IMG/VR virus record: IMGVR_UViG_3300025168_000088
Location: 1 to 61,600 of that record
Origin: a virus
Lineage: Duplodnaviria > Caudoviricetes
DNA length: 61,600 bases
Direction: 5' to 3' (one strand)
Shown here: piece by piece, positions 10,577 through 44,881 of the stretch
Layout: every line of letters starts with the position of its first letter
Numbering within the stretch: the stretch's first letter is position 1
Translations under genes and position numbers: made by a program
Notes under the pieces: model-generated
The model's database searches: none
What the model saw: only the letters and a program-made list of their open reading frames with translations
What the model was told of the DNA's origin: nothing

Positions 10577-10750
10577 TTAACTCTCCAAGAATGCTTTGAT
10601 TTCATCGGAACTCCATGCTGGTAATCCGACAGGCCAATTTGAGCCTAAATGGTATTGCCCCCTAAAGTAATTGAAGCAGGTATCGTCATCCATAAACGAC
10701 CAATCTTCATCGGGGAATCTTGTTTCTAATTTTTCTTTTATTGTTGTCAT
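10577..10750 (-). CDS. 57 aa hypothetical protein (fibre-associated?)
   Basis: MTTIKEKLETRFPDEDWSF...; TGATG coupling to the fibre gene. Confidence 0.6.
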   Translation of the reverse strand: MTTIKEKLETRFPDEDWSFMDDDTCFNYFRGQYHLGSNWPVGLPAWSSDEIKAFLES

Positions 10751-13527
10751 CAAGCATCACCTAATCTAATTACTTTTACTGATGTTCGGTAGTCGTTATA
10801 TGAGGCGAGGTAATACCCACACCCATTAAGATAAGCGGAAAAATAAATGTTCACTGCCGAACCGCCGGTTCTAATTTTTGCTGTTGTTTGGTGATTGTAT
10901 TTTACCTGCACACCATTTATTCTAAATACTTCTCTCGTAGTAGCATAGCGTCTATCCCCACTATTGTTTGTTGATATTTCAACAAAAGAATCAATGTTGG
11001 CGGCACCTGTTCCGTGTCCGAAAATATCAGTCGAAAACCATACATCGTAAATACCATTAGCGGCTAAAGTAAGGTAGCCATCGGAGTGTAATACAATACT
11101 TGTATGGTCGCTTGATGTAGTCGCTTGAGTCCAATAATTCGTATCGGCTAAATCCGCAACCCATCTTGTGTTGCTGTTAAAGTCATTGCTTGAGGATGTT
11201 GAGGGGTTGTGATTAACCATACGCCACTCTCCGAACTCCAATGCGCTACCTCCACCACTCATAGCGGCCCAAGTTAAACCACCGGTCGCTCCACTTTGCG
11301 CTGTGAGTGCGTAGCCGTTGGTGGGACTGTTTGATACCTTGAGGTTTGCCTCATCTACTACATCGTCAGCAATAGTTAAAGCGGTTGCCCCTGTAACTTC
11401 GCCACTGTGTGTAGCGTTGGTAACTTTTGCTGTGTTGGCGGCAACATCTGTTGCTATGTCTATACCATCAACTGTGCCTCCTACTGCTATGCTACCTGCT
11501 ACGGTTATGTCGGTTGAGCCATTGGCAACAGTAATTGCTGTTGTTCCACCAGAAGCACTTGTTCCTGTTCCGAGATACAACCCGTCGTTGTAGGCGAATA
11601 CTTGACCCCCACCATCAACCAAAATTGGTTTGCTAAAATAAAATTGGTCGGCATCTGTATAAATATGAGCATACGCACCGGAGTTGCGGCCAATTTGGAT
11701 ATTGCCTCTATTAGTCTGTATTTGAAACATATTGCTTGAGCCACCCGACTCACCGATGCGAACTTTGTCGTCGGTGGCAGGGTCGGCGGGTATAGCGTTA
11801 AGGGTGATTGTCGTTGCCTCAATCTCGCCGGTCATCGTTCCTCCGGCTTTTGGTAAAGCACCATCAACTTTAGCGAGCGTTGCGTTGGCTAATTTGTCGT
11901 CATTAACTGAGTCATTAGCAATAGTAGCGGCCACTGAACCGGAGCCACTGGCGGTTACATCTCCTGTAAGAGCAGTAATTCCACTACCGCCACCACCACC
12001 TACTTCGCTTGACCCAAAGTATAATTTGTTTGAGTCGCCACTGTTCACCCATATTGTTTTTGCTGGATTAGCGGATGATGGATTAGCACCAACAGCGGTG
12101 AACTCCATACCTGTCGGGTCAATAAGACCGGTAACAGTTAATTTACCATCAACAAGTAGTGTCGATGTAGCGGAGGTCCATAGCAGTTTTTCGTTGGAGG
12201 TGAATGTGCCTCCGGCGTTTGATAGTTGCACCCTACCCACTGGGCCATCGGAGGGAGTAATCGGGAATGTATCGGACATAAGTGAGACATATACTCCGTC
12301 GGATAATTGAGAGAAGTTCCATGACCCTTTGATGACTGGCCTACGGACAGAACAAATAGTGCTTGTTGCCCCACTACCTGCTGTGATGTGGCCCTTGAGA
12401 ACTGCGTCAGCCTCTACTGTGAGACTGTTGACTGATAGAGTGCGATTGTTTGGTATCAAGGCTTTGAACCCTGCCGTAGCGGGGGTGCGTAGAATAAGAT
12501 TGTAGAACCTACAAACGAATGGTGCTGTGCCGAATGTAGTATCTCCTGTGACGGGGATAGTCCAGTCGGTAGCATTCATAGTAAATGCAAAGGTAGAAAA
12601 TCCAGCATCAAATGTAGTTCCCCCAATAGCAAAGGTAGATGTGTTTAGAATCTCAAACACTTTAGTTGCGTTTAGAGTAGAGGTTTCTGTTGCACTACCC
12701 ATTTGAAATGTAGATGCCGAGCCTATATTCATAGAGTAGAATGTAGCCGCACCATGAGTGGTAGAGGTAGGTATGCAGTATTCTGGATTAAAGTAGGATG
12801 TTCCGGCTGTTGTCATATTAGGGTATGGTCCATCATCGAACTTCATAGCACCTGTTCCGTTTGCCGAAGTATTGAATGTGTATGTAAGAATGTCTTGGTT
12901 TTCAATAACAGCGTTTTCACCGTTAAGAACATAGCGATTACCAGTGCCCGAAGGATAGCCGCCGCTTAGAGTAATGGTTTTATTTGAACCAGTAGAGTTT
13001 CTCATTGTTGTATCAAGTGTGAACTTACCAGTAGTTATATTTTCATTCATGGCTAATTTAATAGTGGCGAGAACTGTGACCGATTGCCCCGCTGATTCAC
13101 TTTGCAGGGTTGATTGAGTAGTAGTAATTGTATTAGATGAAATAGCGGCAATATCAAAAGTTCCGTTGTTGGCGGCAGTGCTCGCTCCCGATACTACAAT
13201 TTGCATACCAACTCTAAAACCTAAGTCGGCCCAGTTGGTATTAGCATGTGTTATAGTTTGCCCTGCTGTAAATGAAATAAGAGTAGATGTAGTAGTGGCG
13301 GTGTTATACCCACTGTATGTAGTAAATGCCCCAAGAGTAAGTGCTAAATCCCACAGACAGGTGGCATTACCTTTGTCAGCCGTTAATGTGTCGGGATGAC
13401 CTATATGCACATTGTCACTTGAAGAAGGTATGCCGGCTGAACCCGACCCATTAGCCGCTGTGTTCCAAGCCGAAGCAGTATTGGCACTTGTAGAGCCACC
13501 ATTTTGAACCCAGTATCTATCAGCCAT
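10750..13527 (-). CDS. Fibre/adhesin-like virion protein
   Basis: 925 aa, Thr/Gly/Ser-rich, poly-Gly linkers, fibre-type repeats (GDVTASG..TIANDSV; GEVTGA..TIADDVV) and a C-terminal C1q/BclA-like beta domain (YLTLAANGIYDVWFS). Confidence 0.8.
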   Translation of the reverse strand: MADRYWVQNGGSTSANTASAWNTAANGSGSAGIPSSSDNVHIGHPDTLTADKGNATCLWDLALTLGAFTTYSGYNTATTTSTLISFTAGQTITHANTNWADLGFRVGMQIVVSGASTAANNGTFDIAAISSNTITTTQSTLQSESAGQSVTVLATIKLAMNENITTGKFTLDTTMRNSTGSNKTITLSGGYPSGTGNRYVLNGENAVIENQDILTYTFNTSANGTGAMKFDDGPYPNMTTAGTSYFNPEYCIPTSTTHGAATFYSMNIGSASTFQMGSATETSTLNATKVFEILNTSTFAIGGTTFDAGFSTFAFTMNATDWTIPVTGDTTFGTAPFVCRFYNLILRTPATAGFKALIPNNRTLSVNSLTVEADAVLKGHITAGSGATSTICSVRRPVIKGSWNFSQLSDGVYVSLMSDTFPITPSDGPVGRVQLSNAGGTFTSNEKLLWTSATSTLLVDGKLTVTGLIDPTGMEFTAVGANPSSANPAKTIWVNSGDSNKLYFGSSEVGGGGGSGITALTGDVTASGSGSVAATIANDSVNDDKLANATLAKVDGALPKAGGTMTGEIEATTITLNAIPADPATDDKVRIGESGGSSNMFQIQTNRGNIQIGRNSGAYAHIYTDADQFYFSKPILVDGGGQVFAYNDGLYLGTGTSASGGTTAITVANGSTDITVAGSIAVGGTVDGIDIATDVAANTAKVTNATHSGEVTGATALTIADDVVDEANLKVSNSPTNGYALTAQSGATGGLTWAAMSGGGSALEFGEWRMVNHNPSTSSSNDFNSNTRWVADLADTNYWTQATTSSDHTSIVLHSDGYLTLAANGIYDVWFSTDIFGHGTGAANIDSFVEISTNNSGDRRYATTREVFRINGVQVKYNHQTTAKIRTGGSAVNIYFSAYLNGCGYYLASYNDYRTSVKVIRLGDA

Positions 13528-21648: not shown

Positions 21649-23019
21649 TCACTCATGTGATACTGGAGCAAAGAGAGAACCAATGTAGCCTTCTTTGTAA
21701 TCAATTAGATATGCGGCGAGACCGGCTTTACTGGTAGTGTAGCCGGAGCGTGCATGGTATCGGTCATGCCCTGCGAGGGATGGCATCTGTATAATGAGGC
21801 ACCCGTCTTTTTCGTGCATGCGTTGGTGGTGAAGGTGACCGTGGAACCAAACCTTATGTTCGTTTGTTCCCCATAGTTCACGGGCCTCAACAGCCATAAG
21901 AGAACCGAGAGACACTTTACCGAGACCGTCACCGTGTGTGAAGCCAAGTAGCGTGTTGCCGTATTCGATATAACGACGATTGTTCGGTGTAATAACAATA
22001 TCAACATCATTAACGCCCTCGTATGCGGCGGATAGATACATCATTAGTGCGAGGGATGAATGGCGGTCGTGATTACCTGCCATCATTATGATTTCAACAG
22101 GGGCGACTTGACGCAGTAGGTCAATGTGCTCACGGGCTAATTTACATCCGGTGATTAAGATTTCAGCGGGGGTAGCGCACATATCCTGTGGTGTGCCACG
22201 AGTAGTAAGTCCAGCATCATTATCTACATGGAACCAGTCGGAACCTGCGCCAACATAGATTTTTTCCGGCTTGGTAGAGATACGAGACACGAGTGTTTCG
22301 GTCTTTTCCATCAATCGGTGTCGTGCCTCATCAAAGTTGTAAGACTCCCCTACTTCATCAGCCCATCCGTATTTACCCCAATGAAAGTCAGTAGGGCATA
22401 CTACGAGAGCATATGGGTTCTTAGCCTTTGTTAATTTGATTTTGGGCACAGACTTAGGTGCTTTGGTGAGTGTTGTCATGTGTGCCACATAGTCATCCAT
22501 GAGTGTTCTCCAGTTCTTAGAGTCCTCGGCCATTCGCTTATGCTGTTCTTTTGCGAGGTCGGCGGCGAGCGTGTGACGACGGGAGATAATAATGTCATCA
22601 ATTAGTCCGTCTTGGTCGTCAACCTCCATCAGTTGTTCTCCTGTCACGGGGATAGAGCCACGAGTAATTTTATGAATACGCTTGTATTGCTTAAAGTGAG
22701 ATTCGGCAATTTTATGCGTATGGCATATTTGCGCCGTTGACATACCAGCAGACCACTCCGCCATAATTTGCCGGTGCGTTGCACCCGACATGGTGATTGA
22801 CCCAGTGCCTAAGTGCGTAGTGTATTTGTCATTCTTCTCGTCATATGTGTATGTCCCCGTCTTTGTTGGCGACGCTTTCCTTTCGCAATGCCGAATAAGC
22901 CGCATCTCCCAACCTTTCACGGAGAGGAACGGGTAATGTTCGCTTAGGAATCGAGCGAAGGCGAGTCGGCTTGGGTGGTCTTCTATGCTATGCTCGGATA
23001 GTATGGTATCTATGTCCAT
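21649..23019 (-). CDS. Calcineurin-like metallophosphoesterase with N-terminal HTH
   Basis: DFHWG, GSDWFH, GNHD, THGD and GHLHH motifs. Start refined to MDIDTIL (23019) from the promoter motif TTGATAAGGTGGCG just upstream. Confidence 0.88.
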   Translation of the reverse strand: MDIDTILSEHSIEDHPSRLAFARFLSEHYPFLSVKGWEMRLIRHCERKASPTKTGTYTYDEKNDKYTTHLGTGSITMSGATHRQIMAEWSAGMSTAQICHTHKIAESHFKQYKRIHKITRGSIPVTGEQLMEVDDQDGLIDDIIISRRHTLAADLAKEQHKRMAEDSKNWRTLMDDYVAHMTTLTKAPKSVPKIKLTKAKNPYALVVCPTDFHWGKYGWADEVGESYNFDEARHRLMEKTETLVSRISTKPEKIYVGAGSDWFHVDNDAGLTTRGTPQDMCATPAEILITGCKLAREHIDLLRQVAPVEIIMMAGNHDRHSSLALMMYLSAAYEGVNDVDIVITPNNRRYIEYGNTLLGFTHGDGLGKVSLGSLMAVEARELWGTNEHKVWFHGHLHHQRMHEKDGCLIIQMPSLAGHDRYHARSGYTTSKAGLAAYLIDYKEGYIGSLFAPVSHE

Positions 23020-23239
23020 TAAATAGTATGGTATGGTCGCCACCTTATCAATGTTTCTAAAAAAAATTACCCAAAAAAACGCATGGTGGTTGGCTGTCCC
23101 TATATGTGCCCTATACCTTGTTTTTGGCGACCTCATCGAACAAGGCGTGGCCTCAAGAGAGAGAGGGGCTACCCCCACCCGCCGAAGCGGGTGAAGGAGC
23201 GGCATCGGTTAAACCGTTTACTGTATGCGAGCGAACAAC

Positions 23240-23605
23240 TCATTCAAGGTTGCATACGGATGATAGAATATCTATCAAACCGGCTACCTTTTCTTCAAGG
23301 TCATCAATTCGACCTTGCATCTCACTGATGGTCGAATCCATCTGTGGTGTGTTTTGTTGTTCGGACAGGATAGCGTGGATTTGTTCACCAATTTTGGTGT
23401 TCATATCCAACAGTGCTCTTTGAGTGCTGTCAATTGCATCCTCAACATCAGCCACGCTGTTTTCGTTTTCCTGTATTCTCTCAATCATTGAGGCCTGTGT
23501 CTCAATGACTTCGCTCACCATAGGGTATGCGACACTGTGTGCAATGGTATGCACTGTGTCAAGCATCCCCATTGCTCGGTTCATTTGTTCTTTGTCGTAT
23601 ATCAT
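23240..23605 (-). CDS. Coiled-coil hypothetical protein
   Basis: 121 aa with heptad pattern; GGAGA RBS. Confidence 0.7.
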   Translation of the reverse strand: MIYDKEQMNRAMGMLDTVHTIAHSVAYPMVSEVIETQASMIERIQENENSVADVEDAIDSTQRALLDMNTKIGEQIHAILSEQQNTPQMDSTISEMQGRIDDLEEKVAGLIDILSSVCNLE

Positions 23606-23941
23606 TTTTCATATCTCCATTTTGTCGGCCGACTTCTTCTGTTTTCTTCGTCGGTTATTCCGACATGGGGAGCCACTACTATATCAATACTCACCGAATT
23701 ACCCCCATATTTTACATGATTTGAGTATGATTGAGGCGAGCCGTCGGTCATGGTTGAATCTCTGGGTTTGGGGGGGACTGGCCCCCCGTGTATGTATATA
23801 GTCTTATTAGTCTTATCTTAGGAAGAAAATTGCGGGAGAGAGAGCCGTAGGGAGAGAGATTCTCAAACCTACAAAACCCCAATTGAATATGCCACCACCA
23901 CCGACGGATTGAAGGGCCGTCGCCCTGCCTGTCCTACCTAC

Positions 23942-24415
23942 CTACTCAAGCAACTCAAGAAGGGCTGTGTAGGCCATGACAATACCTTCAACTTGAGTAT
24001 TGATTGAAGGGCCGGTCTTTGTCTTCTTGTATTCAGTGGTTCGCACTTCTTTCATTGGTATGAGTTCGGTCTTTGTTCTTGCTGATGCTCCGGCGCACTC
24101 GCCATGTTCTCTACCGGCTCCGGTTCGCTTGTTTGCTCCGGCCAACTTAATCGGGCCTGTAGAACGACCTAATGAGTTGCCACTGATGAGTGATTGAGTT
24201 TTCTTGACTCTATAACGGCCTGTAAGGAATGTTTCACGCTTTGCTCCTTTGGTGGTGGTTCTATCGTGGGTTTTGTCACATTCAACGGCCATTTGACCTT
24301 GAGCCTGATATTGGGCCATGTCCTTCTTAATTCTCTTGAGTAGTTGCTTCGATGCTTGAGGCTTCGCTTCATCTATTCCGTAGTGCTTCATCAGTGTTAT
24401 TATGGGGTTCGCCAT
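23942..24415 (-). CDS. Basic hypothetical protein
   Basis: 157 aa, Lys/Arg/Thr-rich; TTGATATA box about 28 nt upstream (leaderless). Confidence 0.7.
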   Translation of the reverse strand: MANPIITLMKHYGIDEAKPQASKQLLKRIKKDMAQYQAQGQMAVECDKTHDRTTTKGAKRETFLTGRYRVKKTQSLISGNSLGRSTGPIKLAGANKRTGAGREHGECAGASARTKTELIPMKEVRTTEYKKTKTGPSINTQVEGIVMAYTALLELLE

Positions 24416-24656
24416 GATACTCCGAGGGAGTGGTAGTATATCAACTGCCCTATGGCTCGTTTACCGTCTGGAGTAAGCAGGGTTTGCCCCACGCATGGCC
24501 CCGCCGCCGGTGTAAGACTGTTAAATAGAAAATGCGCTTGGGGAGAGATACTCGGCGCTTGGCCTCTGTAGTTATATTAGTCTATAGTCTTAGGAAGGAA
24601 CCACGACCGAGAGGGGTCTTGGGAGAGAGATTTTGACTTGTCCAAAAGTCCAAGTT

Positions 24657-24911
24657 TTCGATGCACTCCGCTCATGCTTTGCCGTTGATGTTTGAGGTTA
24701 TGAACCCTTTGTTTTTGTTGTTTTTCGGCTGTTTTCATTTGGTGCCGGCCTGATGAGCACTTTTTCTCTATTCGATGGACTGCGTGACCGATGGCCCCTA
24801 ATTCGCTCGGATTCGTGAAATGTGCGTTTTTGGGCTGTTTTGGGGGGTTCGGCGGCCTGTGTCAAGCCGACGATTTAGGGCACCCTAATTTCGGCTATTC
24901 GATGCACTGCG
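24657..24911. repeat. Three spaced direct repeats TTCGATG(C/G)ACT(C/G)CG in the divergent intergenic region
   Basis: Copies at 24657, 24771 and 24898. Confidence 0.7.
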
Positions 24912-24949
24912 AGCCATTTTTGTTATAGGTGGGTTCATATACTATACCC

Positions 24950-26090
24950 CACTATGACTGTTTGCTCAACCAACAACACCGGTTGGAGCCGAAGCGAAAC
25001 TTGCCGAGAATCGGTCTACCCTTACGGGAGCCGTCGGCGCTCATACGGCCCTTGATTCATCAAGGGTTCTTGAGGCACCACAGACCGAAAACACTTGATT
25101 GAGTCCTTCGGAAAACCCAGAATATCGGGTATATGGAGGGACTGCGTAGCCTCGCACTGCCTCTCTTTGAGAGGTGGGGTAGAGGACTCTTGAACCCGTT
25201 TCTAAATACCTATTAGACGCATATTGAAATAGCGAAGGGATGGTCGTGCCCCCAAAGGGAATAACACGGACATATGACAGACAGTGTGAGAATGACTCGC
25301 ACTTCATCGGAGTTGCTGAAGACGCCACCAATGGACTTTCATCCCTATCGACGGGATGCCGGTTCGGTGGCTACATTAGGCACTGAAAGCATCAATCAGC
25401 GAAGGGTTGAGAAGCATCACTTCTCGACAGGGGCGACCCGACTCCCTTCAATGATGACGGCTTACAATCCAATGACAGTAGACCTAAGACCCTACTTGAG
25501 GACATATATGGCATACGAGACCGCAGTGAACATAACGGATTCATATTCCCTAAGAAGGCGGTCAAGAATCAAGGCATCAGATTCGGGTCGTGCCCGACTG
25601 ATGACACTATTTAGTAGCGAACTATGAATGACAGTGGCAAACGGTGACGGGAGCCACATTCGGATAGATTCCACGGGATTATAACTATCCCGATGCCAGA
25701 TTATCGGCTTAGGACTTCATTCATAGGGAGTATCTATGCGGGGAATAAACCGGCGGAGTGTCTATGATGCAGTGGGGGAGCGGGTGCTTTTCCGATAGGG
25801 CGAACCTCGCCCGAATCCACCCCTCTCCGATATTCTCTCCTGTGACTCCGGCATGGGTGCCTCGGCACCTATGCCCTTCATGGTCAATGACGAGCCGGCC
25901 TACGGGCCACCTCCGAGACCACATCCGATTCACACCGGTGTAGATAGAAGCAATCGCACCTCGGCTACTGCCGACTACACCAGACCCAAGAATGCGGCGG
26001 AGACTCTACCGCCAGCGAACTCTCTCCCTCAAAGAAAGAGAGCGGTTGAAAGAGACCAAGAAAAGAGAGGGGAATGCGCTTAGGCAAGGC
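24950..26090 (+). ncRNA. Putative large multi-domain structured non-coding RNA (or giant 5' leader)
   Basis: More than 20 hairpins and nested long-range helices; G-U pairs favour the plus strand; TTATAGGTGG promoter-like box at ~24923; no credible ORF. Boundaries approximate. Confidence 0.7.
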
Positions 26091-26114
26091 CCATATAAAA
26101 ACGGAGGACAAAAA

Positions 26115-28859
26115 ATGTATGAAAATGCAATAAACGGAGCAGACGGCGCAATCGGTGCGATTATCGGCATGCTATGGGTGTTTACACTCATGGGTGCGGT
26201 AGTTGTTACCTTTGCGGCCAACAGAAGAGAAGAAACAATGCGTATGCGTGTTGGTATTGAAATTGAGGCAATTCGTAATGAACATGCCCAAGAAGCACCA
26301 AACACCAGTATCGCTAACTGGCTTGACACCATGCGTTCACAGCATGGTGACAAACATGTGGACAAATACTTGGCTACCTTGAAAAAGCGGCGAAGTCAGT
26401 GGATAAAAACTCGTGCTGAAAGGCGACGGGTAATACATGCCGCTCTACCACACAGTTATCGTGGTAGTAGATTCCGCATTCGTGACGAATCATGGAGTGC
26501 GGGTCAAACCACATTCTACACCAAAGTCACCACCGACGGTTCGCTGTCATCAGGTGGTTTTGAAGTCGTGTCGCACCCTTTAACAGATGGTGCACATCAC
26601 GGATGGATTGCTAAGGTATGTAATGCACTACGACACATCACACGGGTGGACCGTTCAACTGGCCTCCATGTGCATGTCGGATTGCGTGACCCCGAAGCAA
26701 GATTCGGTGACGAAGGACAAATTACCCGACGACAAGCAGTTGCGATTGCTGGCCGTGTGGCTTGGGCATATGCTCACTTCACACCCGCTTTCAACAAATT
26801 GGTTTCATCAAGTAGGCATCACGGTCAATACTGTGCGCCTGCCAACCACATGACGAACACATATCCAAACCCCGTAGAACATCAGCGGGTCGAAAGATTA
26901 CATCATGTGATGGAGATACCAGACGAACAACACGACATCAACATTCGTTATACACCATTGTCAAGTCATCCAAATGACGAAGGCTACTGGTGCGAAAGAG
27001 TGCATACCCTCACAGGTCCGGCACTTCACGAAGCAATGTATGACGCATCTCAAAATGCGGGTCGTTACTACCACTTGAACACCAACAGTCTACTTAACCG
27101 TAACTTTGGCACTGTCGAGTATCGACAACATCAAGGCACTACCAACCCAGTGAAAATTAGTAACTGGGTCGAACTGACCTATCAGTTCACACTGGCATGT
27201 GCTGACGAGACCAACTTCGACGGAATTATGCAATACCCACCGACTCTTGAAGGTCTTTGGGCATTCATGGATTTCGCTGACGACGACCCACTCGTAGACT
27301 ACTACAACAAGCGTGCATCAGTTCTCGCTGGTTCTCAACTTATTCGGGCTTGTTCCGAGTGCGATAGCCACACCTGTGTGCACTACGAATGTGTCGGTGG
27401 AAATGACCAGCAGGTCATGCAAAACATCGGCACACACCTCGCTCCGGCGGCTTACGAGTGCGTAGATTGTGGATGTCACATCGAAACACATAATGTTGAT
27501 GCAGAAGACATGACAGCCTCATGTTATGAGTGCGACCAGTATGTCGAGGTATGTTATGCCTCCGGCTTAATTGCATCACTCGCCCTCGGCTTCTTTGTAG
27601 CCGCACCACTCGTGGGTGCAGTTGCACTGGTAGTCGGTTGCGGTATAGGTGCTATGCACGCTGGTTCAAAGAAGTTCATGGCGAAGCGGTCGTTCAAGAA
27701 GTTATGGAACGACCTCGCATCCCGTGGCGGTCAAGCGGCTGGCTTTGCGTGGCAAAAGCGTAAGGATAAGCATGTGTGGCATCTCAAGGCACCGGCGTCG
27801 TCGGTCTACCTCAAGAAGCATGTCAACAAGCACTTGGATAAGTCAACGGTATGGGCTATGGCTCACACACGATATGCAACACACGGTGTCAACAACAAGG
27901 CAAACGCACACCCGCACTTTGGTTATGACAACAAAGGTGTAGCGGTAGTGACATTAGTGCACAACGGAGTGGTTCACAACCACGATGATGTATGGCATGC
28001 ACTTGGGCGTAAGCCTACTGGCCCAGTTGACAGTGAAGCAGTTGCCGCCGCCCTTGCGGTCGGTGGTATCGAAAAGGTGGTTGAGACCTGCAATGGCTCA
28101 ATGTCACTCATATGGTCGGACACACGAGACCCGAAAGGGACACTCAAGTTCTGGTCTAATGGTGGCAACCCACTGTGTGCAGGGCGACTCGACCATCCAA
28201 ACACCGGAACAGTTGTTGTTGCATCGACACTCGACATACTCGAAAAGTCTCAAGGCTCACGCCTCAAGACTTCTTGGGCATGCACAGTCGGTCGTGAATA
28301 CACCATCGACCCAAGCGGTAGCATCACTGGTCGTGACATCAAAGGTAGTGCCGACACAGCATACGGTGCATACTCGTGGCGCACATACGCTACCCTCACA
28401 GGTGGCGGCAAGTCGAAGTCCAACAAGACTCGACAGTTGAGCGTCAAGTCCAAAAAGCCAAAGGGTAAAACCGATGGTAATGCGGATAACTGTGCAGTCG
28501 TGTTCAGTCCAACGGAGCGCAACTCCGATTGGCAATACGAATACGACGACATGTTGCTCAACGAGGCATTGTATGACGCATGGGCGGCTATGAGCATGTC
28601 TGGTTTTCCAGCAATTGACGACTATCACGGTTACGATGGTTACACACATGAAGGCGTCCGTCCAAACGGCAGTAAGTATTACCTGCCCAACTACATCTAC
28701 GGTCTACCTGTAGACCCTACCACCAACACGGACATGCAGGTCATGCTAATGCTCGGTGACTTCGACCCTCAAAAGTCCAAGTCCGACTTTGACTTTGCCG
28801 ACGAACCATACGACGACCACTGGGTGCCGACCGACCAACTCGGTAATCCACTGTATTGA
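26115..28859 (+). CDS. Membrane-anchored COOH-NH2 amidoligase (Amidoligase_2 type) - Zn ribbon - class II glutamine amidotransferase fusion
   Basis: GGAGG RBS before ATG 26115. Ligase motifs VGIEIE, DGSL, GFEVVS, STGLHVHVG, RYYHLN, TVEYRQH. GATase-II motifs CGI, RG..AAG, AHTRYATHG, NAHPH, VHNGVV, VDSE. Confidence 0.9.
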   Translation: MYENAINGADGAIGAIIGMLWVFTLMGAVVVTFAANRREETMRMRVGIEIEAIRNEHAQEAPNTSIANWLDTMRSQHGDKHVDKYLATLKKRRSQWIKTRAERRRVIHAALPHSYRGSRFRIRDESWSAGQTTFYTKVTTDGSLSSGGFEVVSHPLTDGAHHGWIAKVCNALRHITRVDRSTGLHVHVGLRDPEARFGDEGQITRRQAVAIAGRVAWAYAHFTPAFNKLVSSSRHHGQYCAPANHMTNTYPNPVEHQRVERLHHVMEIPDEQHDINIRYTPLSSHPNDEGYWCERVHTLTGPALHEAMYDASQNAGRYYHLNTNSLLNRNFGTVEYRQHQGTTNPVKISNWVELTYQFTLACADETNFDGIMQYPPTLEGLWAFMDFADDDPLVDYYNKRASVLAGSQLIRACSECDSHTCVHYECVGGNDQQVMQNIGTHLAPAAYECVDCGCHIETHNVDAEDMTASCYECDQYVEVCYASGLIASLALGFFVAAPLVGAVALVVGCGIGAMHAGSKKFMAKRSFKKLWNDLASRGGQAAGFAWQKRKDKHVWHLKAPASSVYLKKHVNKHLDKSTVWAMAHTRYATHGVNNKANAHPHFGYDNKGVAVVTLVHNGVVHNHDDVWHALGRKPTGPVDSEAVAAALAVGGIEKVVETCNGSMSLIWSDTRDPKGTLKFWSNGGNPLCAGRLDHPNTGTVVVASTLDILEKSQGSRLKTSWACTVGREYTIDPSGSITGRDIKGSADTAYGAYSWRTYATLTGGGKSKSNKTRQLSVKSKKPKGKTDGNADNCAVVFSPTERNSDWQYEYDDMLLNEALYDAWAAMSMSGFPAIDDYHGYDGYTHEGVRPNGSKYYLPNYIYGLPVDPTTNTDMQVMLMLGDFDPQKSKSDFDFADEPYDDHWVPTDQLGNPLY

Positions 28860-28916
28860 TTGTTTCTTCATCTGTTGAGACCTTCCCTTAATCCGCTGGA
28901 TTGAGGTTGCCGCCTA

Positions 28917-28960
28917 CTCTTGGGGCTTCGGCCCCTTGAGAGGCCCCCGCTGGCGAGCGG
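28917..28960 (+). other. GC hairpins downstream of the amidoligase gene
   Basis: GGGGC-TTCG-GCCCC (UUCG tetraloop) and CCGCT-GGCG-AGCGG. Confidence 0.5.
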
Positions 28961-29032
28961 TTTACAAATACGCACTCACATTCACGCCTTCGGGCATCAC
29001 ATTCCCCCACAGGAAAGGAGGTGAAAACAAAC

Positions 29033-29368
29033 ATGGATAAATACAAGCAACAAATTATGCAACTGTATGCTACGCTACTGCGTGCACACATAGCATTACT
29101 TGATGAGATATTGGATGCGGCTACAAGTAAAGCCGCACGCCGATGTGCAACCATAGCCAGTGAACAAATCTGTTCAACTGTGTATCATTTGATAGATGAC
29201 ACTGGCATTATGCCCAACAGCCACATGATACCATACATCGAAGACTTGGCACCAACAGCCGATGACTTTGATTTTGGTCTCATGGAATCTGTTCGGGATA
29301 TGGAAAAGCGAGTGTTCCCGTCGACAGTCGGCGGTCGCACTGGTTTTGGCATATACCCAAGCAACTGA
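29033..29368 (+). CDS. Hypothetical protein
   Basis: AAGGAGGTGA RBS before ATG (MDKYKQQ...). Confidence 0.7.
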   Translation: MDKYKQQIMQLYATLLRAHIALLDEILDAATSKAARRCATIASEQICSTVYHLIDDTGIMPNSHMIPYIEDLAPTADDFDFGLMESVRDMEKRVFPSTVGGRTGFGIYPSN

Positions 29369-29517
29369 TGTCTCATTGGTAATCCAGTATATCGGTATGT
29401 CGCAGATAACTCGGCAATACCGTTCCCGAAAGGGTAGCCGCACTGCCCCTCTCTTCGGAGGGGGGTGGTGCCCAACACCTCCTCTCACATCACACTCCAA
29501 CAGGAGGTATAACAAAA

Positions 29518-29628
29518 ATGGAAAACGAATGGGAATGCGGTTGCATTCAAACAGGAACAAATTGGATTCTGTGCAAAGACTGTAAGGCGGCGCGTGAGCA
29601 CCCCCTCGCATGTGCTTGTTGCCAGTAA
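29518..29628 (+). CDS. 36 aa Cys-rich microprotein
   Basis: AGGAGGT RBS; MENEWECGCIQTGTNWILCKDCKAAREHPLACACCQ (7 Cys). Confidence 0.65.
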   Translation: MENEWECGCIQTGTNWILCKDCKAAREHPLACACCQ

Positions 29629-29829
29629 GCATAATCCAAATGCCAAGCCAAAAATACCAAATGGATGACGGGCATTTTAACCCGACGGTTGAGGAACCAC
29701 CCACGATAGATGCGCAGGCGTGCGCTATACAAATACGCTTCATTTTTTTAATCAGCGAGAGGACAGTGCATACCGGCGGGGTAGGTGCTATCAATTACAT
29801 AGGGGCATAATTGCGCACGACTGGAGATG

Positions 29830-30251
29830 CTCTCTCTCCCCCCCATAGTCTTAAGACTTAAGACTAAACCACATGTGCTAAGGAGAGCGATTTTTGGCGG
29901 CGAAAAATCCAAACACTCACGCCCGCACACACACATGCGTCATACACTACTAAAATCGAGGCTCTCTATGCACATACAGTCTTAAGACTGAATCCCCCAC
30001 TGCATGCGTATTAGGAGAGCGGATTTTCACCTAAAAAAATCCAAATCAAAATGCTCATAAGGCACACACACATACACACACACGAACAGGTGAGGTTTTA
30101 GGGCATACGAAAAAGCCCCCATACAGGCGAAAAAGCGAACATATGTGCGGAAACAGGCGTAAAGCACTCCGATTACGCCAAAAAACGGGGCAATCGTATG
30201 TGCATGGGTAGGCTCACGCATCATATGCGAGTGTTTCGATTACGCCAAAAA
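29830..30251. repeat. Non-coding repeat/palindrome cluster
   Basis: GTCTTAAGAC palindromes (29848, 29979), GGAGAGC(G)GATTTT...AAAATCCAAA twice, CGATTACGCCAAAAA twice (30170, 30237), CA-rich tracts. Confidence 0.75.
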
Positions 30252-32005
30252 CCAAACACCTTATAATGCGTATGTGCGAGAACGCTCTACTTTCGCACCC
30301 GTTCCGCATACACATCCATACATGACGCATATACACACACTTACGCATAGGGCCAGCAAACAGGGGAGCAGTGACCTCTTTAAGTAGCAGGTGTAGGGGG
30401 AGAATGCTAATATAGCGGGAACCTCACATTTCACTTTGATGACAACCCAAACGGATGAAATCGAAGCGAGAGGCTCACTGAGTCTCGATAACATAAAGGA
30501 CGGCACCTATTGGTTGGCCGACGGCATTTTACGCCGGTCTGGGGCGACGAAGGGATTTTGGGTAGCCTCGCATAGAGGGACTGATGCCCTGCTTGACCGA
30601 GACCTCACGCTGTTCAACCCAAGCATCACCGGAGCCACTGTGAAAGCCATGCTTGAAGCCCCTCGAATCCTTAACCAAACTCGCACATTTTATGTGGGTG
30701 TTTGGACTGATAACTCCGGCAACCAACATCTCGACTACTCATATCATGTGGATAAGTATAACGAGGCAATGGCAATAGCAAAACACAGAAACCAACTCGC
30801 AATATGGGATATTTTCATGGGTCGTGAAGTGGCGGTGGTCGCATGAGTCCAACAGAATACATAAACAGGTTGATTGAGAAGGATAAAACCGGCACTCTCG
30901 CAAATGACATACGCATACTGAAAAGCATAGGCTGGACTGATGAGAAGTTGGCTAATGCTCAGTATGAGGTTCAAGATTTACTGGGGTTGTTCGCATGAGT
31001 GCCGTTGAAATCATGGGCTACGAAGCCGCCATCAAAAGCCCTGCCGTTTGCATGGTTACATACTGGCGCTACTTCGGTGTGGATGAGATATGTGAATGCA
31101 ATACCTGCATGGATGAACATGGGGTGAACGAATGAATCCGAGCGATAACCCCCTGTCTAAAGGTTGGTTTTCCGGCGAGATTTTCAAGCCGTCATTTGGA
31201 TTCACTCGAATAAAATTACAGTATGTAACAAGGGAAACCGCACGAGACAAGAAAGGCAACACCTACACATGGCACTCATACAAGGCATACTGGCGAAAGG
31301 ATGAGGTGAGCGAATGATTACAGCGTGGCTAATACGCATGACGATTCGATACAACAGGTGGCGATTTCAATGAGCAACGACCCAAACCACTGCCCTCAAC
31401 GCTATGAGGACATACAGGTGTGCAAAGACACATCATGTGTATGCCTACCTGCCCTGCTCGCAACGCCTCGCAAATGTGAGGATTGCGGAGTAGATGTGAA
31501 TTACTCATGGATGGGCGCATACTGCAAAGGGTGCCTACAAACAGGTTCGGGGTTGTTTGAATGAACGCATTCACTGCCGATAGAGACCGAACACTATATA
31601 TGGGGGAGGCCACCCATAGGAAAACAACGGCCAACAAACCGAAACAAGGAGAACTGAAAATGAAAACAGCAATAGATGAATTGATAGAAACGATAGACGA
31701 AAAGTTCGATGAGGTGTCACACATGCTCATCACGGATTACCCGAAGGGGGATTACATGGATGGCTACATAGCCGCCCTCGGATGGATATTGGGGTTGATT
31801 GAATGAGCGTAGCAGTAGATAGTTCAGTGTTTGCAGACTGCCCAAAGTGCGGTGCTGAAAATGATGCAGTAGACCTATGGGATGCAAACATCGAATCATT
31901 CGATGGCGACCAAGTTACAATGCGAGCCGAGCAAACATGCGAAACATGCGGCGATTCATACAGCGTCATATGGTATGCAACCATTCACTCGACGGAGGTG
32001 GAGGA

Positions 32006-43847: not shown

Positions 43848-44516
43848 ATGGGAGTAGTAATTTTTACCAAAGACGATGAGCGATACCGGACTGGCGACTA
43901 CTTCACCATGTATGGTGGACTCACAGTCTCCCCCTCTCTCCCACACACTACTTACATTCTACACATTAACAAGTTCAGTGAACAAGACGCTCTCTATTGG
44001 ACTAAGATTGTTCCTTTCCGACTTGTAGTGGTTTGTGACAAGTTGCCTAAATTGACAAAGGCGAGTGACGAATGCGTCATCCTCGACCAATCAATCAAGA
44101 CAGACAAGCCCGACTACTCTCGTAAAATGAGAGCCGCCCTATGCTGGGCCGACCGTGACCGAGCGCATACTGCTCTCGGCCCTATCCCTCTCCCCTTAGC
44201 CAACGCATTCATCAAGGTTAATGTTCACGACATCAACCTCGGTCGCCTCTTGGCTCGGTGCCGCTACACGCTACACGAAAATTACACTCGTGCCGCTATT
44301 GCATACGGCATCAATCCAGTTCGTAAGTTCAAGTGGCCTTCTAAGAAGGCCAACAAGGACTATATAGTGCCGATGGGTATTAGACAATCAGACAAGCACA
44401 TAGCGACAATCATCAATAATGATGTATTGACTGCTAATGAGTTGCGCATCAATGATATGACTGCGCTACCTGCTGGTCTAAATAAAACAAAACAGGAGGC
44501 AATACAATGGGTATGA
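43848..44516 (+). CDS. Hypothetical protein, possibly a degenerate clamp-loader (RFC large-like) subunit
   Basis: Alpha/beta N-terminus without P-loop; helical collar-like C-terminus; near the RFC gene. Weak resemblance only. Confidence 0.35.
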   Translation: MGVVIFTKDDERYRTGDYFTMYGGLTVSPSLPHTTYILHINKFSEQDALYWTKIVPFRLVVVCDKLPKLTKASDECVILDQSIKTDKPDYSRKMRAALCWADRDRAHTALGPIPLPLANAFIKVNVHDINLGRLLARCRYTLHENYTRAAIAYGINPVRKFKWPSKKANKDYIVPMGIRQSDKHIATIINNDVLTANELRINDMTALPAGLNKTKQEAIQWV

Positions 44517-44881
44517 TGATACAACAAGAAGCAATAGATACGGTGTTCGTTTACGGGACACTAAAGAATGGATATAGCAATCACGGATTGGTAAAAGACT
44601 CTCTCTTTCTTGGCGAGTTCTCCACTAATCCAAAGTGGGGGTTAATTGACTTAGGCTTATACCCTGCTATGGTTCGTGGTAGATTTGAAGTGAAGGGCGA
44701 GGCATACGGTGTCTCGGAGTCTACTCTTGAAAGACTTGACTACCTCGAAGGCGTAGACCGAGGACTTTACTCTCGCCGTAGAATCAATGTCAAAGATAAT
44801 CTCGGAAATAAAATTAGTGCTTGGGTCTACATTTACAATGCTATTCCACATGACACTGTTCAACTTATGGAGGAGTGGTGA
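44507..44881 (+). CDS. Gamma-glutamylcyclotransferase (GGCT/AIG2-like)
   Basis: VFVYGTLKNG, VKGEAY, LDYLEG, Y.R and AWVY signature motifs. Confidence 0.92.
   Translation: MGMMIQQEAIDTVFVYGTLKNGYSNHGLVKDSLFLGEFSTNPKWGLIDLGLYPAMVRGRFEVKGEAYGVSESTLERLDYLEGVDRGLYSRRRINVKDNLGNKISAWVYIYNAIPHDTVQLMEEW

What the first reader, a model, noticed from the sequence alone, without database searches (positions are those of the whole stretch)
26115..28859. Membrane-tethered amidoligase-Zn ribbon-GATase polyprotein with an internal catalytic Cys
Seen: the order is TM helix, glutamine-synthetase-fold COOH-NH2 ligase, three CxxC pairs, a hydrophobic hairpin (GLIASLALGFFVAAPLVGAVALVVG), then CGIGAM at 27639 and a full class II GATase. 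Known: class II GATases are Ntn hydrolases that need a free N-terminal Cys (MCGI...). Amidoligase, GATase and GGCT genes cluster in some phages (phiEco32-like), usually as separate soluble proteins. Inference: the enzyme must be released by autoprocessing or by a membrane peptidase at VVG|C (which also resembles a lipobox), giving a membrane-gated peptide-tagging or envelope-modifying system. It is the first gene behind the giant RNA, so RNA plus enzyme may form a single undescribed system.
Basis: partly seen in the sequence, partly recalled or inferred. Interest (0 to 1): 0.8.

Follow-up and report, generated by a model that had tools for sequence, protein, structure and literature searches.

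The report
Membrane-anchored ligase–glutaminase fusion needing self-cleavage
An uncultured marine virus encodes one long protein that joins a membrane-anchored ATP-dependent ligase to a glutamine-splitting enzyme whose catalytic cysteine is buried mid-chain behind a greasy helix, so the protein must almost certainly be cut there to work; the layout is conserved in dozens of related viruses and I found no description of it in print.

Summary
One ORF (26115-28859, +, 914 aa, GGAGG 7 nt upstream) has this domain order: N-terminal TM helix, Amidoligase_2 (GS-fold) domain, three CxxC pairs, a 25-residue hydrophobic segment, then a class II (Ntn) GATase starting at Cys509 (codon 27639), a disordered linker and a C-terminal domain that matched no family.

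- **Not an artefact.** 54 full-length fused homologues exist in marine viral and metagenomic contigs.
- **Junction.** In a 51-row alignment it reads [VIL]-V-[G47/A2/Q2]-C-G-[IV]-G-x-x-H. Cys509 and every ligase and glutaminase catalytic residue I checked are invariant.
- **Nucleophile.** Dozens of stand-alone relatives start M-C, aligned exactly to Cys509.

Best reading (0.55): a pro-enzyme cut at G508|C509, most likely by Ntn autoproteolysis. This gives a membrane-held ligase chain and an active glutaminase chain that act on amide or gamma-glutamyl chemistry at the cytoplasmic membrane face. A GGACT gene is present in 6 of 6 genomes checked.

The lipobox and exported readings are disfavoured: the flank before the segment is acidic and the flank after the Cys is strongly basic.

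The "giant RNA" shrinks to a 1.7-kb non-coding leader with some conserved hairpins. Its link to the gene is positional only.

First-stage notes of this scan report the same architecture in four other genomes.

Verdict: new variant of a known kind; interest 0.6.

The parts
26103..26107 (+). Shine-Dalgarno-like GGAGG, 7 nt before the ATG at 26115
   Evidence: sequence read directly
26115..28859 (+). Whole gene: 914-aa TM-amidoligase-Zn ribbon-hydrophobic segment-GATase-C-terminal domain precursor (stop included)
26151..26219 (+). N-terminal membrane helix (residues ~13-35). Acidic before, basic after, so predicted N-out/C-in.
   Evidence: KD 2.38; two hydrophobic segments in 51/51; helix 11-40; C-flank more positive than N-flank in 49/51
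26244..27329 (+). GS-fold ATP-dependent carboxylate-amine ligase domain (Pfam Amidoligase_2 at 44-357; fold continues to ~405). Invariant G47 E49 E51 D141 E150 H185 H187 R234 R317 E335 R337 H339.
   Evidence: domain model pTM 0.82; the top 10 PDB fold hits are all GS / YbdK-type ligases, but weak (E 1e-3 to 4e-2)
27351..27533 (+). Cys-rich module (C413xxC416...C421; C449xxC452; C470xxC473), presumably zinc ribbons
   Evidence: Each Cys is conserved in 46-48 of 51. 30/51 have three CxxC, 13 have two, 5 have one, 3 have four.
27564..27638 (+). Hydrophobic pro-segment (residues 484-508) ending in V507-G508, directly abutting the nucleophile
   Evidence: KD 2.55; helix 485-505, pLDDT <50; P2 Val 51/51; P1 Gly 47, Ala 2, Gln 2
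27639..27641 (+). Codon of Cys509, the predicted Ntn nucleophile and predicted new N-terminus after cleavage
27639..28370 (+). Class II (Ntn) glutamine amidohydrolase domain (residues 509-752). Invariant R537, R586, T589, N617-G618, D639, plus the family-specific H515.
28371..28526 (+). Lys/Ser/Gly-rich linker predicted disordered (residues 753-804)
   Evidence: pLDDT 30-42
28527..28856 (+). C-terminal beta-rich domain matching no family (residues 805-914; confident to ~890)
   Evidence: pLDDT 83-96 for 810-880. No Pfam or PHROG hit there. No Atlas hit. The loose motif [HW]G[YWF][DC]..TH.G[IVL].P occurs in 0 of 93 stand-alone relatives but only 13 of 73 junction-bearing proteins.
44507..44881 (+). 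Gamma-glutamyl(amine) cyclotransferase gene (GGACT/AIG2), likely a distant partner
   Evidence: PF06094, E 9.8e-24. Also present in 5 of 5 related virus records searched.
24416..26114 (+). 1.7-kb non-coding stretch between the divergent gene blocks; leader/promoter region of the fusion gene, with candidate conserved hairpins around 25020-25480
   Evidence: No Rfam family.

Best explanation
**What it is.** The gene encodes a viral pro-enzyme.

**Topology.**
- An N-out/C-in helix tethers a GS-fold, ATP-dependent carboxylate-amine ligase and a zinc-ribbon module to the cytoplasmic face of the host membrane.
- A second hydrophobic stretch leads straight into a class II (Ntn) glutaminase. That stretch is probably monotopic or re-entrant in the precursor.

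**Maturation (inferred).**
- An Ntn nucleophile needs a free alpha-amino group, so the G508|C509 bond must be cut.
- The most likely route is an intramolecular N-to-S acyl shift, as in other Ntn precursors and the short propeptides of class II GATases.
- Cleavage would give an alpha chain (TM-ligase-Zn-hydrophobic tail, held in the membrane) and a beta chain (glutaminase plus C-terminal domain).

**Chemistry (inferred).** The two chains, together with the virus's GGACT, act on amide or gamma-glutamyl chemistry near the membrane early in infection.
- (a) About 40%: glutamine-derived ammonia is passed to the ligase, which amidates an ATP-activated carboxylate.
- (b) About 35%: a gamma-glutamyl-amine is formed by the ligase and trimmed by the Ntn domain and GGACT.

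**Shown versus inferred.**
- Shown: architecture, conservation, intact catalytic residues, homology of Cys509 to Cys1.
- Inferred: cleavage, its autocatalytic nature, topology, substrate.
For: 1. **Architecture.**
2. **Conservation.** There are 54 fused homologues at 31-60% identity. Two hydrophobic segments occur in 51/51.
3. **Nucleophile.**
   - Cys509 is invariant and aligns with residue 2 (M-C...) of dozens of stand-alone GATases.
   - The Asn-Gly and the conserved Arg and Asp are 51/51. I identify these from recall as the oxyanion hole and glutamine-binding residues.
   - The domain is therefore built to be catalytic.
5. **Junction under selection.** P2 Val is 51/51 and P1 is Gly 47, Ala 2, Gln 2. 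His at Cys+6 is 51/51 in the fused family but 1/93 in stand-alone M-C relatives.
6. **No internal start.** P1 is Gly and P2 is Val, so no reading leaves Cys as residue 2.
7. **Split form.** In L021, ORF1 ends ...DCEC with TGA and ORF2 starts at an overlapping ATG. The separate GATase keeps a 16-residue hydrophobic leader before the Cys. P0076 has an 18-residue leader. Leader-Cys cleavage is therefore needed whether or not the gene is fused.
8. **Cytoplasmic placement.** TM1 has a basic C-flank in 49/51. The flank before segment 2 averages -3.4 net charge and the 30 residues from the Cys average +6.2.
9. **Partners.** Amidoligase and GATase are adjacent separate genes in the same order in phiEco32-like and LUZ24-like phages. 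GGACT is present in 6/6 genomes.
Against: - There is no experimental evidence of cleavage.
- Known class II GATase propeptides are short (recalled as about 11-42 aa), not 508 aa, and none is hydrophobic.
- The two hydrophobic segments both 'want' N-out/C-in, which a simple two-span topology cannot satisfy. The topology is unresolved.
- In the full-length AF2 model, pTM is only 0.50 and the hydrophobic helix has pLDDT <50. No domain packing can be claimed.
- I recall no GS-fold ligase that takes ammonia from a GATase, which weakens sub-model (a).
- A writer fused to its own eraser would be odd, which weakens sub-model (b).
- The amidoligase fold match to PDB is weak (best E 1.1e-3, TM up to 0.38).
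- The host is unknown.
Confidence: 0.55

Rival explanations
1. Writer/eraser without a complex. The ligase gamma-glutamylates an amine on a membrane-proximal target. The released Ntn domain and GGACT are independent hydrolase and cyclotransferase enzymes that process or remove the gamma-glutamyl group. The fusion only ensures co-expression and timed release. This is a functional rival to the ammonia-channel sub-model; maturation by cleavage is the same.
For: - The best fold hits of the ligase domain are gamma-glutamyl-amine-forming enzymes: 1-naphthylamine GS and YbdK.
- GGACT co-occurs in 6/6 genomes.
- Stand-alone phage GATases lack any synthase domain.
- GS-like ligase plus GATase-like hydrolase pairs (PuuA/PuuD, aniline AtdA1/AtdA2) are recalled, not tested here.
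Against: - The recalled precedents use class I, not class II, GATase-like hydrolases.
- Adjacency in other phages and fusion here point more naturally to one two-subunit enzyme.
- The conserved Arg and Asp fit both free glutamine and a gamma-glutamyl amide, so they do not discriminate.
Confidence: 0.3
2. Export and peptidase cleavage. The second hydrophobic segment is an internal signal or stop-transfer helix spanning in-to-out. A host signal-peptidase-type enzyme cuts after V-x-G on the outer face. The GATase-like hydrolase is released outside the cytoplasm to act on gamma-glutamyl bonds of the envelope.
For: - A strict alternation of two spanning helices would place the GATase outside.
- -3 is aliphatic in 48/51 and -1 is Gly or Ala in 49/51, which fits a (-3,-1) rule.
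- The split form looks like a signal peptide plus mature Cys.
Against: - The segment's N-flank is acidic (mean -3.4) and the 30 residues after the site are strongly basic (mean +6.2, range +2 to +8). By the positive-inside rule this keeps the GATase side cytoplasmic.
- P1 is Gln in 2 of 51 and Asn in the split form.
- All 93 stand-alone relatives examined start M-C with no leader.
- The split-form leader has no basic n-region.
Confidence: 0.12
3. No cleavage. The protein works as one chain. The GATase domain either uses a non-Ntn mechanism or serves only as a glutamine/gamma-glutamyl-binding or regulatory module for the ligase.
For: - No cleavage has been observed.
- The 508-residue 'propeptide' is unprecedented in size.
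- The family-specific invariant His515 could hint at altered chemistry.
Against: - The Ntn catalytic set checked (Cys, Asn-Gly, Arg, Asp) is 51/51, which is hard to explain for a mere binding module.
- Ntn chemistry needs the free alpha-amine (PMC9140057).
- The split form still carries a leader before the Cys.
Confidence: 0.1
4. Bacterial lipoprotein processing: Lgt and LspA act on the lipobox-like L-V-G-C.
For: 48 of 51 junctions formally match [LVI][ASTVI][GAS]C.
Against: - The motif is ~480-680 residues into the protein, behind an acidic rather than basic n-region.
- Diacylglyceryl modification of the thiol would destroy the nucleophile (established chemistry).
- Three of 51 family members and the split form break the pattern.
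- C-G-I-G is simply the GATase start motif: CGIG or CGIA in 71 of 93 stand-alone relatives.
- The host may not be a bacterium.
Confidence: 0.02

Closest known systems
Amidoligase_2 / class II GATase / ATP-grasp / GGCT cassette of phiEco32-like (Gordonclarkvirinae) and LUZ24-like phages. It was predicted by Iyer, Abhiman, Burroughs & Aravind 2009. That paper is not held here and is known only through citing papers and recall.
   Same: - Same two enzyme families in the same order, amidoligase then GATase.
- GGCT in the same genome.
- Early / non-structural genome region.
- Function unproven.
- Seen in SU7 and UFV-P2 (passage).
   Different: - There, the genes are separate and the GATase starts M-C. 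I did not check those proteins for membrane segments.
- ATP-grasp and COOH-NH2_lig genes accompany them there.
- Here it is one polypeptide with two hydrophobic segments, zinc ribbons and an internal Cys.
- No ATP-grasp_4 match in this genome. The COOH-NH2_lig search was uninformative because its control did not ring.
Class II GATases made with a propeptide (MEROPS C44; B. subtilis PurF, PPAT, glutamate synthase large subunit)
   Same: A Cys nucleophile that must be exposed by removing preceding residues; stated to be autocatalytic (PMC9140057). The GATase domain here matches PurF and GlmS folds.
   Different: Known propeptides are short and soluble (sizes recalled), and the GATase is always the N-terminal domain (recalled). 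Here the 'propeptide' is a 508-residue functional enzyme ending in a hydrophobic helix.
Two-chain Ntn hydrolases made by autoproteolysis (gamma-glutamyltranspeptidase, penicillin G / cephalosporin acylases, glycosylasparaginase, proteasome beta subunits)
   Same: The logic of one precursor, internal nucleophile and self-cleavage to alpha and beta chains. A small P1 residue (Gly) before the nucleophile, as in proteasome beta subunits and cephalosporin acylase (recalled).
   Different: They belong to different Ntn families with Thr or Ser nucleophiles. Their alpha chain is part of the same fold, not a separate ATP-dependent ligase. None uses a hydrophobic helix as the pro-segment end, to my knowledge (recalled).
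MurT/GatD lipid II amidotransferase (PMC3267633; search listing and start of abstract only)
   Same: An ATP-dependent ligase-type subunit plus a glutaminase subunit amidating a carboxylate of a membrane-linked envelope precursor. This is a functional analogy for sub-model (a).
   Different: It uses a Mur-ligase fold and a class I GATase, has no membrane anchor and no processing, and shows no sequence relationship.

Membership tests
Class II (Ntn, PurF/GlmS-type) glutamine amidotransferase domain | Ntn alpha-beta-beta-alpha fold and family sequence profile | tested here: met
   Pfam GATase_6 at 54.3 bits (cutoff 27) and GATase_7 at 26.1 bits (cutoff 25). Foldseek hits GlmS, GFAT and PurF at E 1e-12 to 1e-8. 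The profile against PDB hits GlmS at 4.5e-18.
Class II (Ntn, PurF/GlmS-type) glutamine amidotransferase domain | Nucleophile Cys at the first position of the mature chain | not testable with these tools
   Cys509 aligns with residue 2 of M-C... relatives and is 51/51. In the gene product it is internal. Whether it becomes N-terminal needs protein chemistry.
Class II (Ntn, PurF/GlmS-type) glutamine amidotransferase domain | Oxyanion Asn-Gly and glutamine-binding Arg and Asp | tested here: met
   N617-G618, R586 and D639 are each 51/51. Their equivalence to GlmS Asn98-Gly99, Arg73 and Asp123 is from recall plus motif identity (HTRxATHG, HNG).
Amidoligase_2 (PF12224), GS/GCS2-fold carboxylate-amine ligases | Pfam profile above the gathering score | tested here: met
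   43.4 bits against a cutoff of 22, residues 44-357 covering profile positions 3-243 of 245. PHROG amidoligase families also match.
Amidoligase_2 (PF12224), GS/GCS2-fold carboxylate-amine ligases | GS-type fold | tested here: inconclusive
   The domain model has pTM 0.82. The ten best PDB matches are all GS-like or YbdK ligases, but with E 1.1e-3 to 4e-2 and TM up to 0.38. The VIA-align libraries were not available.
Amidoligase_2 (PF12224), GS/GCS2-fold carboxylate-amine ligases | Conserved acidic/His/Arg active-site motifs (ExE, HxH, ExRxH) | tested here: met
   E49, E51, H185, H187, E335, R337 and H339 are all 51/51. Their assignment to metal/ATP/acyl-phosphate sites is recalled from GS, not tested.
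Bacterial lipoprotein precursor (lipobox) | N-terminal signal peptide with a basic n-region, followed by [LVI][ASTVI][GAS]C | tested here: not met
   The motif matches in 48/51, but it lies at residue ~385-680, not at the N-terminus. Its upstream flank is acidic (mean -3.4). P1 is Gln or Asn in some members.
Autoprocessing Ntn-hydrolase precursor | Self-cleavage at the bond preceding the nucleophile | not testable with these tools
   Only indirect evidence: invariant P2 Val, small P1, invariant nucleophile, and a leader retained in the split form.
Phage amidoligase-GATase-GGCT system | Co-occurrence of the three enzyme families in one viral genome | tested here: met
   GGACT is at 44507-44881 and in 5 of 5 related records. 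Amidoligase and GATase are in one ORF.

The most novel reading that the evidence does not exclude
- The hydrophobic helix is a membrane-embedded pro-segment, which would make this the first Ntn amidotransferase zymogen whose activation is coupled to the membrane.
- Self-cleavage at the lipid interface would at once arm and release the glutaminase. It would leave a GS-like ligase stapled to the membrane by an N-terminal anchor and a new C-terminal tail anchor.
- The matured pair, with GGACT, would amidate or gamma-glutamylate a lipid-linked envelope precursor or membrane protein of an uncultured marine (possibly archaeal) host, to block superinfection or mask receptors.
- This would explain why the gene evolves about five times faster than its neighbours.
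- Its expression would be governed by the 1.7-kb structured leader.
Probability: 0.2. Interest if true: 0.8.

Novelty: new variant of a known kind. Interest (0 to 1): 0.6.

Why it matters
- **It breaks a textbook rule.** Class II glutamine amidotransferases are, as I recall, always placed at the N-terminus because their nucleophile must be residue 1. This viral family puts one behind 508 residues and a hydrophobic helix, in at least 54 sequence clusters.
- **It gives two things if self-cleavage is confirmed.**
  - A natural, compact example of how autoproteolysis frees domain order in Ntn enzymes.
  - A membrane-linked zymogen switch that could be reused in protein engineering.
- **It makes an old prediction testable.** The phage amidoligase/GATase/GGCT cassette was predicted in 2009 and, in the papers I could search, has never been assigned a substrate. 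Here there is one polypeptide with fixed stoichiometry and a membrane address.
- **It points to host interaction.** The protein is 59% identical to that of the nearest relative, against 87-92% for the flanking core genes. That pattern suggests host-interaction pressure in abundant uncultured marine viruses.

Tried and rejected
- **Assembly or frameshift artefact: rejected.** 54 homologues share the layout. Laying contigs of four runs gave one spanning contig in the likely source run (X1). No independent contig bridged the junction by 31 letters or more on both sides, so this adds nothing independent.
- **Internal translation start giving M-C: rejected.** P1 is Gly and P2 is Val.
- **Complex prediction** (ligase 41-480 with GATase 509-752): no verdict, score 0.00. 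This is not evidence either way.
- **Rfam:** no family in the window at gathering thresholds, nor in 23000-26200 at E<=1.
- **RNA expression:** no RNA holder listed among 23 runs.
- **Single-sequence folding z-scores.** The leader (mean -1.35 on +) is barely below the coding gene (-0.93), with 20 shuffles per window, so the values are noisy.
- **Sigma-70 promoter and terminator scan of 24300-29500:** fewer sites than in shuffles.
- **Repeat core TAGTCTTAGGAAG:** 3 matches against 1.2 expected; 11 of 100 shuffles reach 3, so not significant on its own.
- **Atlas search of the C-terminal domain:** no usable hit.
- **'phages' collection.**
  - DNA search of 23000-30500: no match.
  - Protein search: only partial GATase matches at <=33% identity, none covering 80% of the query.
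- **Host inference.**
  - TerL and PolB hits are ~23% identical, to a mix that includes haloarchaeal tailed viruses.
  - Two MAG hits come from different bacterial phyla, and one is a 61-kb contig of virus-genome size. I regard them as binning noise.
  - The host stays unknown.
- **Independent check of the split form.**
  - P0076's own contig could not be fetched.
  - The split form rests on L021 plus the database protein P0076.
  - P0198 and P0199 may be cut gene calls.
- **Rows dropped.** From alignment A1 I left out 4 of the 54 hits:
  - P0002, identical to the query;
  - P0015, a 542-aa fragment;
  - P0017 and P0038, dropped without a strong reason (a same-length neighbour of P0016 and an 82%-coverage protein).
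- **Papers.**
  - Iyer et al. 2009 is not held. Its content is cited only through citing papers and recall.
  - I did not open supplements. Tables S13 and S14 of PMC11706807 could show whether the Vyasavirus amidoligase and GATase are one gene.


Full report
**What is there.** The window is a 61,600-base IMG/VR virus record, estimated 96% complete.

Its genes are as follows.
- Large terminase, a tape-measure-like protein and a Mre11/SbcD-type phosphoesterase.
- Family B DNA polymerase, an RFC-like AAA+ protein, an ERCC4-HhH nuclease, a PD-(D/E)XK nuclease and a GGACT.
- Genes up to 24415 lie on the - strand. From 26115 they lie on the + strand.

The finding's ORF is the first + strand gene. 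Its start is the ATG at 26115, 7 nt after GGAGG. Every aligned homologue begins at that Met.

**Anatomy of the 914-aa product (P0001).**
- Residues 13-31 are strongly hydrophobic (KD 2.38). AF2 draws a helix at 11-40.
- Pfam finds Amidoligase_2 at 44-357 and GATase_6/7/4 between 541 and 710.
- PHROG glutamine-amidotransferase profiles align their position 2 to residue 509.
- Between the two enzymes lie CSEC, CVDC and CYEC, then the 25-residue stretch GLIASLALGFFVAAPLVGAVALVVG (484-508), then C509-G-I-G. The Cys codon is at 27639-27641.
- The full-length AF2 model has mean pLDDT 80.9 and pTM 0.50.
  - Both enzyme domains and a beta-rich C-terminal domain (about 805-890) are confident.
  - The 485-505 helix has pLDDT <50.
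  - Residues 752-803 are disordered.
- The GATase part matches the GlmS, GFAT and PurF glutaminase domains.
- A model of the ligase domain alone (pTM 0.82) finds only GS-type ligases among its ten best PDB matches: 1-naphthylamine GS, YbdK and P. aeruginosa GS. The scores are weak: E 1.1e-3 to 4e-2.

**Is it real and conserved?** Yes.
- A word-seeded search returned 54 proteins at E<=0.001, of 542-1106 aa and 31-100% identical. 53 of the 54 carry both Pfam domains; the exception is the 542-aa fragment P0015. They come from marine metagenomes and viral contigs of up to about 62 kb.
- The exhaustive representative search gave 33 clusters at E<=1e-30, followed by a long tail of stand-alone relatives.
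- I aligned the query with 50 of the 54 hits (A1). The four dropped rows are named under Tried and rejected.
- All 51 rows have two hydrophobic segments.
- The junction reads [VIL]-V-[G 47 / A 2 / Q 2]-C-G-[I 49 / V 2]-G-[A/L]-x-H.
- These residues are 51/51:
  - Ligase: E49, E51, D141, E150, H185, H187, R234, R317, E335, R337, H339.
  - Glutaminase: C509, R537, R586, T589, N617, G618, D639.
- The CxxC cysteines are kept in 46-48 of 51.
- IMG/VR gave 21 loci with the same gene.
- First-stage notes of this scan describe the same architecture in four other genomes. I did not test those windows.

**Why cleavage is required.**
- In the representative search, dozens of stand-alone GATases of about 230-480 aa align from their residue 2 to query residue 509.
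Cys509 is therefore the homologue of the N-terminal nucleophile.
- Ntn chemistry needs the free alpha-amine. [quoted passage not shown]
- An internal start cannot expose the Cys, because the two preceding codons are Val and Gly.
- One locus carries a split form.
  - In L021, ORF1 ends ...DCEC-TGA and ORF2 starts at an ATG overlapping it by 7 nt. There is no homopolymer at the site.
  - ORF2 reads MLMLLSLLLPLAILVN|CGIG.
  - The database protein P0076 starts MSLLMLLSLLLPLAILVN|CGIG. It matches that contig's ORF2 at 78% identity over its best segment.
  - The hydrophobic leader therefore travels with the GATase, and a cut before the Cys is needed even without the fusion.
- His at Cys+6 is 51/51 in the fused family but 1/93 in the M-C relatives. 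This marks a family-specific adaptation of the junction. I could not inspect model coordinates to say what it touches.

**Autoproteolysis or a protease? Inside or outside?**
- TM1 has an acidic N-flank and a basic C-flank. The C-flank is the more positive in 49/51. The ligase, which needs ATP, and the Cys-rich module are therefore cytoplasmic.
- The second segment has a median uncharged run of 26 residues and a Pro in 46/51.
- Its N-flank is acidic (mean net -3.4, range -9 to 0). The 30 residues from the Cys are very basic (mean +6.2, range +2 to +8).
- By the positive-inside rule this argues against export of the GATase. It therefore argues against signal peptidase or Lgt/LspA acting on the outer face.
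- The lipobox pattern is matched formally in 48/51. However, C-G-I-G/A is just the ordinary GATase start (71 of 93 stand-alone relatives). Lipidation of the thiol would also kill the nucleophile.
- P1 is Gln (2/51) or Asn (split form). An intramolecular acyl shift tolerates these more readily than those peptidases do.
- My preferred picture is a monotopic or re-entrant hydrophobic pro-segment, or one that inserts as a tail anchor after cleavage. Both enzymes would sit on the cytoplasmic side, and the protein would cut itself. The topology is inferred, not shown.

**What the enzymes do.** Both active sites are intact, so the product is a ligase plus a glutamine/gamma-glutamyl-amide hydrolase.
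- In phiEco32-like SU7 the neighbourhood reads: COOH-NH2 ligase, hypothetical, amidoligase, a 667-aa GATase protein, two small genes, ATP-grasp, two small genes, GGCT.
- LUZ24-like UFV-P2 has the same order (passage).
- Here the amidoligase and GATase are fused. GGACT sits 16 kb away and is present in 5 of 5 related records searched.
- No ATP-grasp_4 match was found. The COOH-NH2_lig search was uninformative.
- Papers that mention the pair only repeat the 2009 predictions of cell-wall modification, superinfection exclusion or secondary metabolites (passages).
- I found no experimental function and no description of the fused, membrane-anchored form in five searches.
- I give about 40% to a glutamine-dependent amidation, in which ammonia is handed to the GS-like ligase and the two chains stay together as in other two-chain Ntn enzymes.
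- I give about 35% to a gamma-glutamyl-amine cycle involving GGACT.
- The complex prediction gave no verdict.

**Evolutionary behaviour.** Compared with the nearest relative, L001:
- TerL is 91.5% identical at the protein level and the phosphoesterase 86.7%, but the fusion protein only 59.4%.
- At the DNA level the flanks are 86-89% identical and the gene 68-70%.
- The hydrophobic pro-segment is the best-kept part of the protein (24/26) and the Cys-rich module the worst (27/77).

This hot-spot pattern fits a host-interaction gene.

**The 'giant RNA'.**
- 23942-24415 (-) encodes a conserved 157-aa protein, 52-60% identical in L001-L003.
- Another small - strand ORF near 23237-23600 is conserved at the protein level in L004, L014 and L020.
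- The non-coding stretch is therefore 24416-26114.
- nhmmer detects its homologues over the full length in L001-L003 and over 24421-24860 in L004 and L010. That is 5 of 21 loci.
- In all 21 loci the nearest - strand ORF of more than 400 aa ends 1.4-5.3 kb upstream of the fusion gene. Only ORFs of 100-344 aa lie between. These numbers are read. Homology of the upstream ORFs was checked only in L001-L003.
- On a four-sequence alignment, consensus folding of 25020-25459 on the + strand is far more stable than column shuffles (z -6.9 to -10.2, against -2.7 to -3.2 on the - strand).
- RNAalifold finds hairpins with two-sided changes, for example around 25400-25445.
- With four sequences in two close pairs, and my own crude shuffle, this is suggestive only.
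- There is no Rfam match and no RNA run.
- The gene's link to an RNA is positional: it is the first ORF after a long, partly structured leader.

**Host.** Unknown.
- The PolB/RFC/ERCC4 set is typical of archaeal viruses, from my recall. The best PolB hit is a haloarchaeal tailed virus at 23% identity. Both hint at an archaeal host.
- The TerL hits are mixed. The two MAG hits are probably mis-binned viral contigs.

**Verdict.**
Release at G|C is required, but the lipobox and peptidase route is unlikely, and the RNA-enzyme 'system' is unproven.
- It is a new architectural variant of the known but uncharacterised phage amidoligase-GATase system, with a new maturation logic for a class II GATase.
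- Interest 0.6.

Noticed in passing
window 23942-24415 (-): A conserved 157-aa basic protein, 52-60% identical in L001-L003, with an invariant GANKR.G.G.EHGEC.GAS block. No family search was run on it.
   Followed up: partly
window 25020-25480 (+): Candidate conserved RNA hairpins in the leader of the fusion gene. Alignment-fold z is -6.9 to -10.2 on + against about -3 on -. Several stems show two-sided compensatory changes, but there are only four sequences.
   Followed up: partly
window 23790-23870 and 24560-24640 (+): Two copies of a ~70-nt element (TATAGTCTTA...TAGTCTTAGGAAG...GGGAGAGAGATT). Each lies 150-270 nt upstream of a small - strand gene and is conserved in L001-L003. It may be a promoter or regulatory site. 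The 13-nt core alone is not significantly enriched (3 matches against 1.2 expected).
   Followed up: partly
window 28860-29500 (+): The stretch just downstream of the fusion gene folds much more stably than shuffles on the + strand (z -3.0 to -5.7 in five consecutive 150-nt windows, 20 shuffles each). It is 88% identical to L001 and overlaps a 115-aa ORF (29021-29368) of unknown reality.
   Followed up: no
window 26115-28859 against its flanks: The fusion gene is a divergence hot spot. Its protein is 59% identical to that of L001, while TerL and the phosphoesterase next door are 92% and 87% identical.
   Followed up: yes
L021 10915-10921: A natural split of the gene between the Cys-rich module and the hydrophobic leader, with an overlapping ATG..TGA (ATGTTGA). 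This suggests translational coupling. P0076 shows the same N-terminus.
   Followed up: partly
window 45545-46447, 50540-52762, 55525-56235 (+): An RFC-like AAA+ protein, a family B polymerase and an ERCC4-HhH nuclease sit together in a 61.6-kb tailed virus. The replication set looks archaeal. The host was not determined.
   Followed up: partly
window 56223-61547 (-) and 10750-13527 (-): Very large ORFs (1774 aa and 925 aa) with no PHROG match at E<=1e-5.
   Followed up: no
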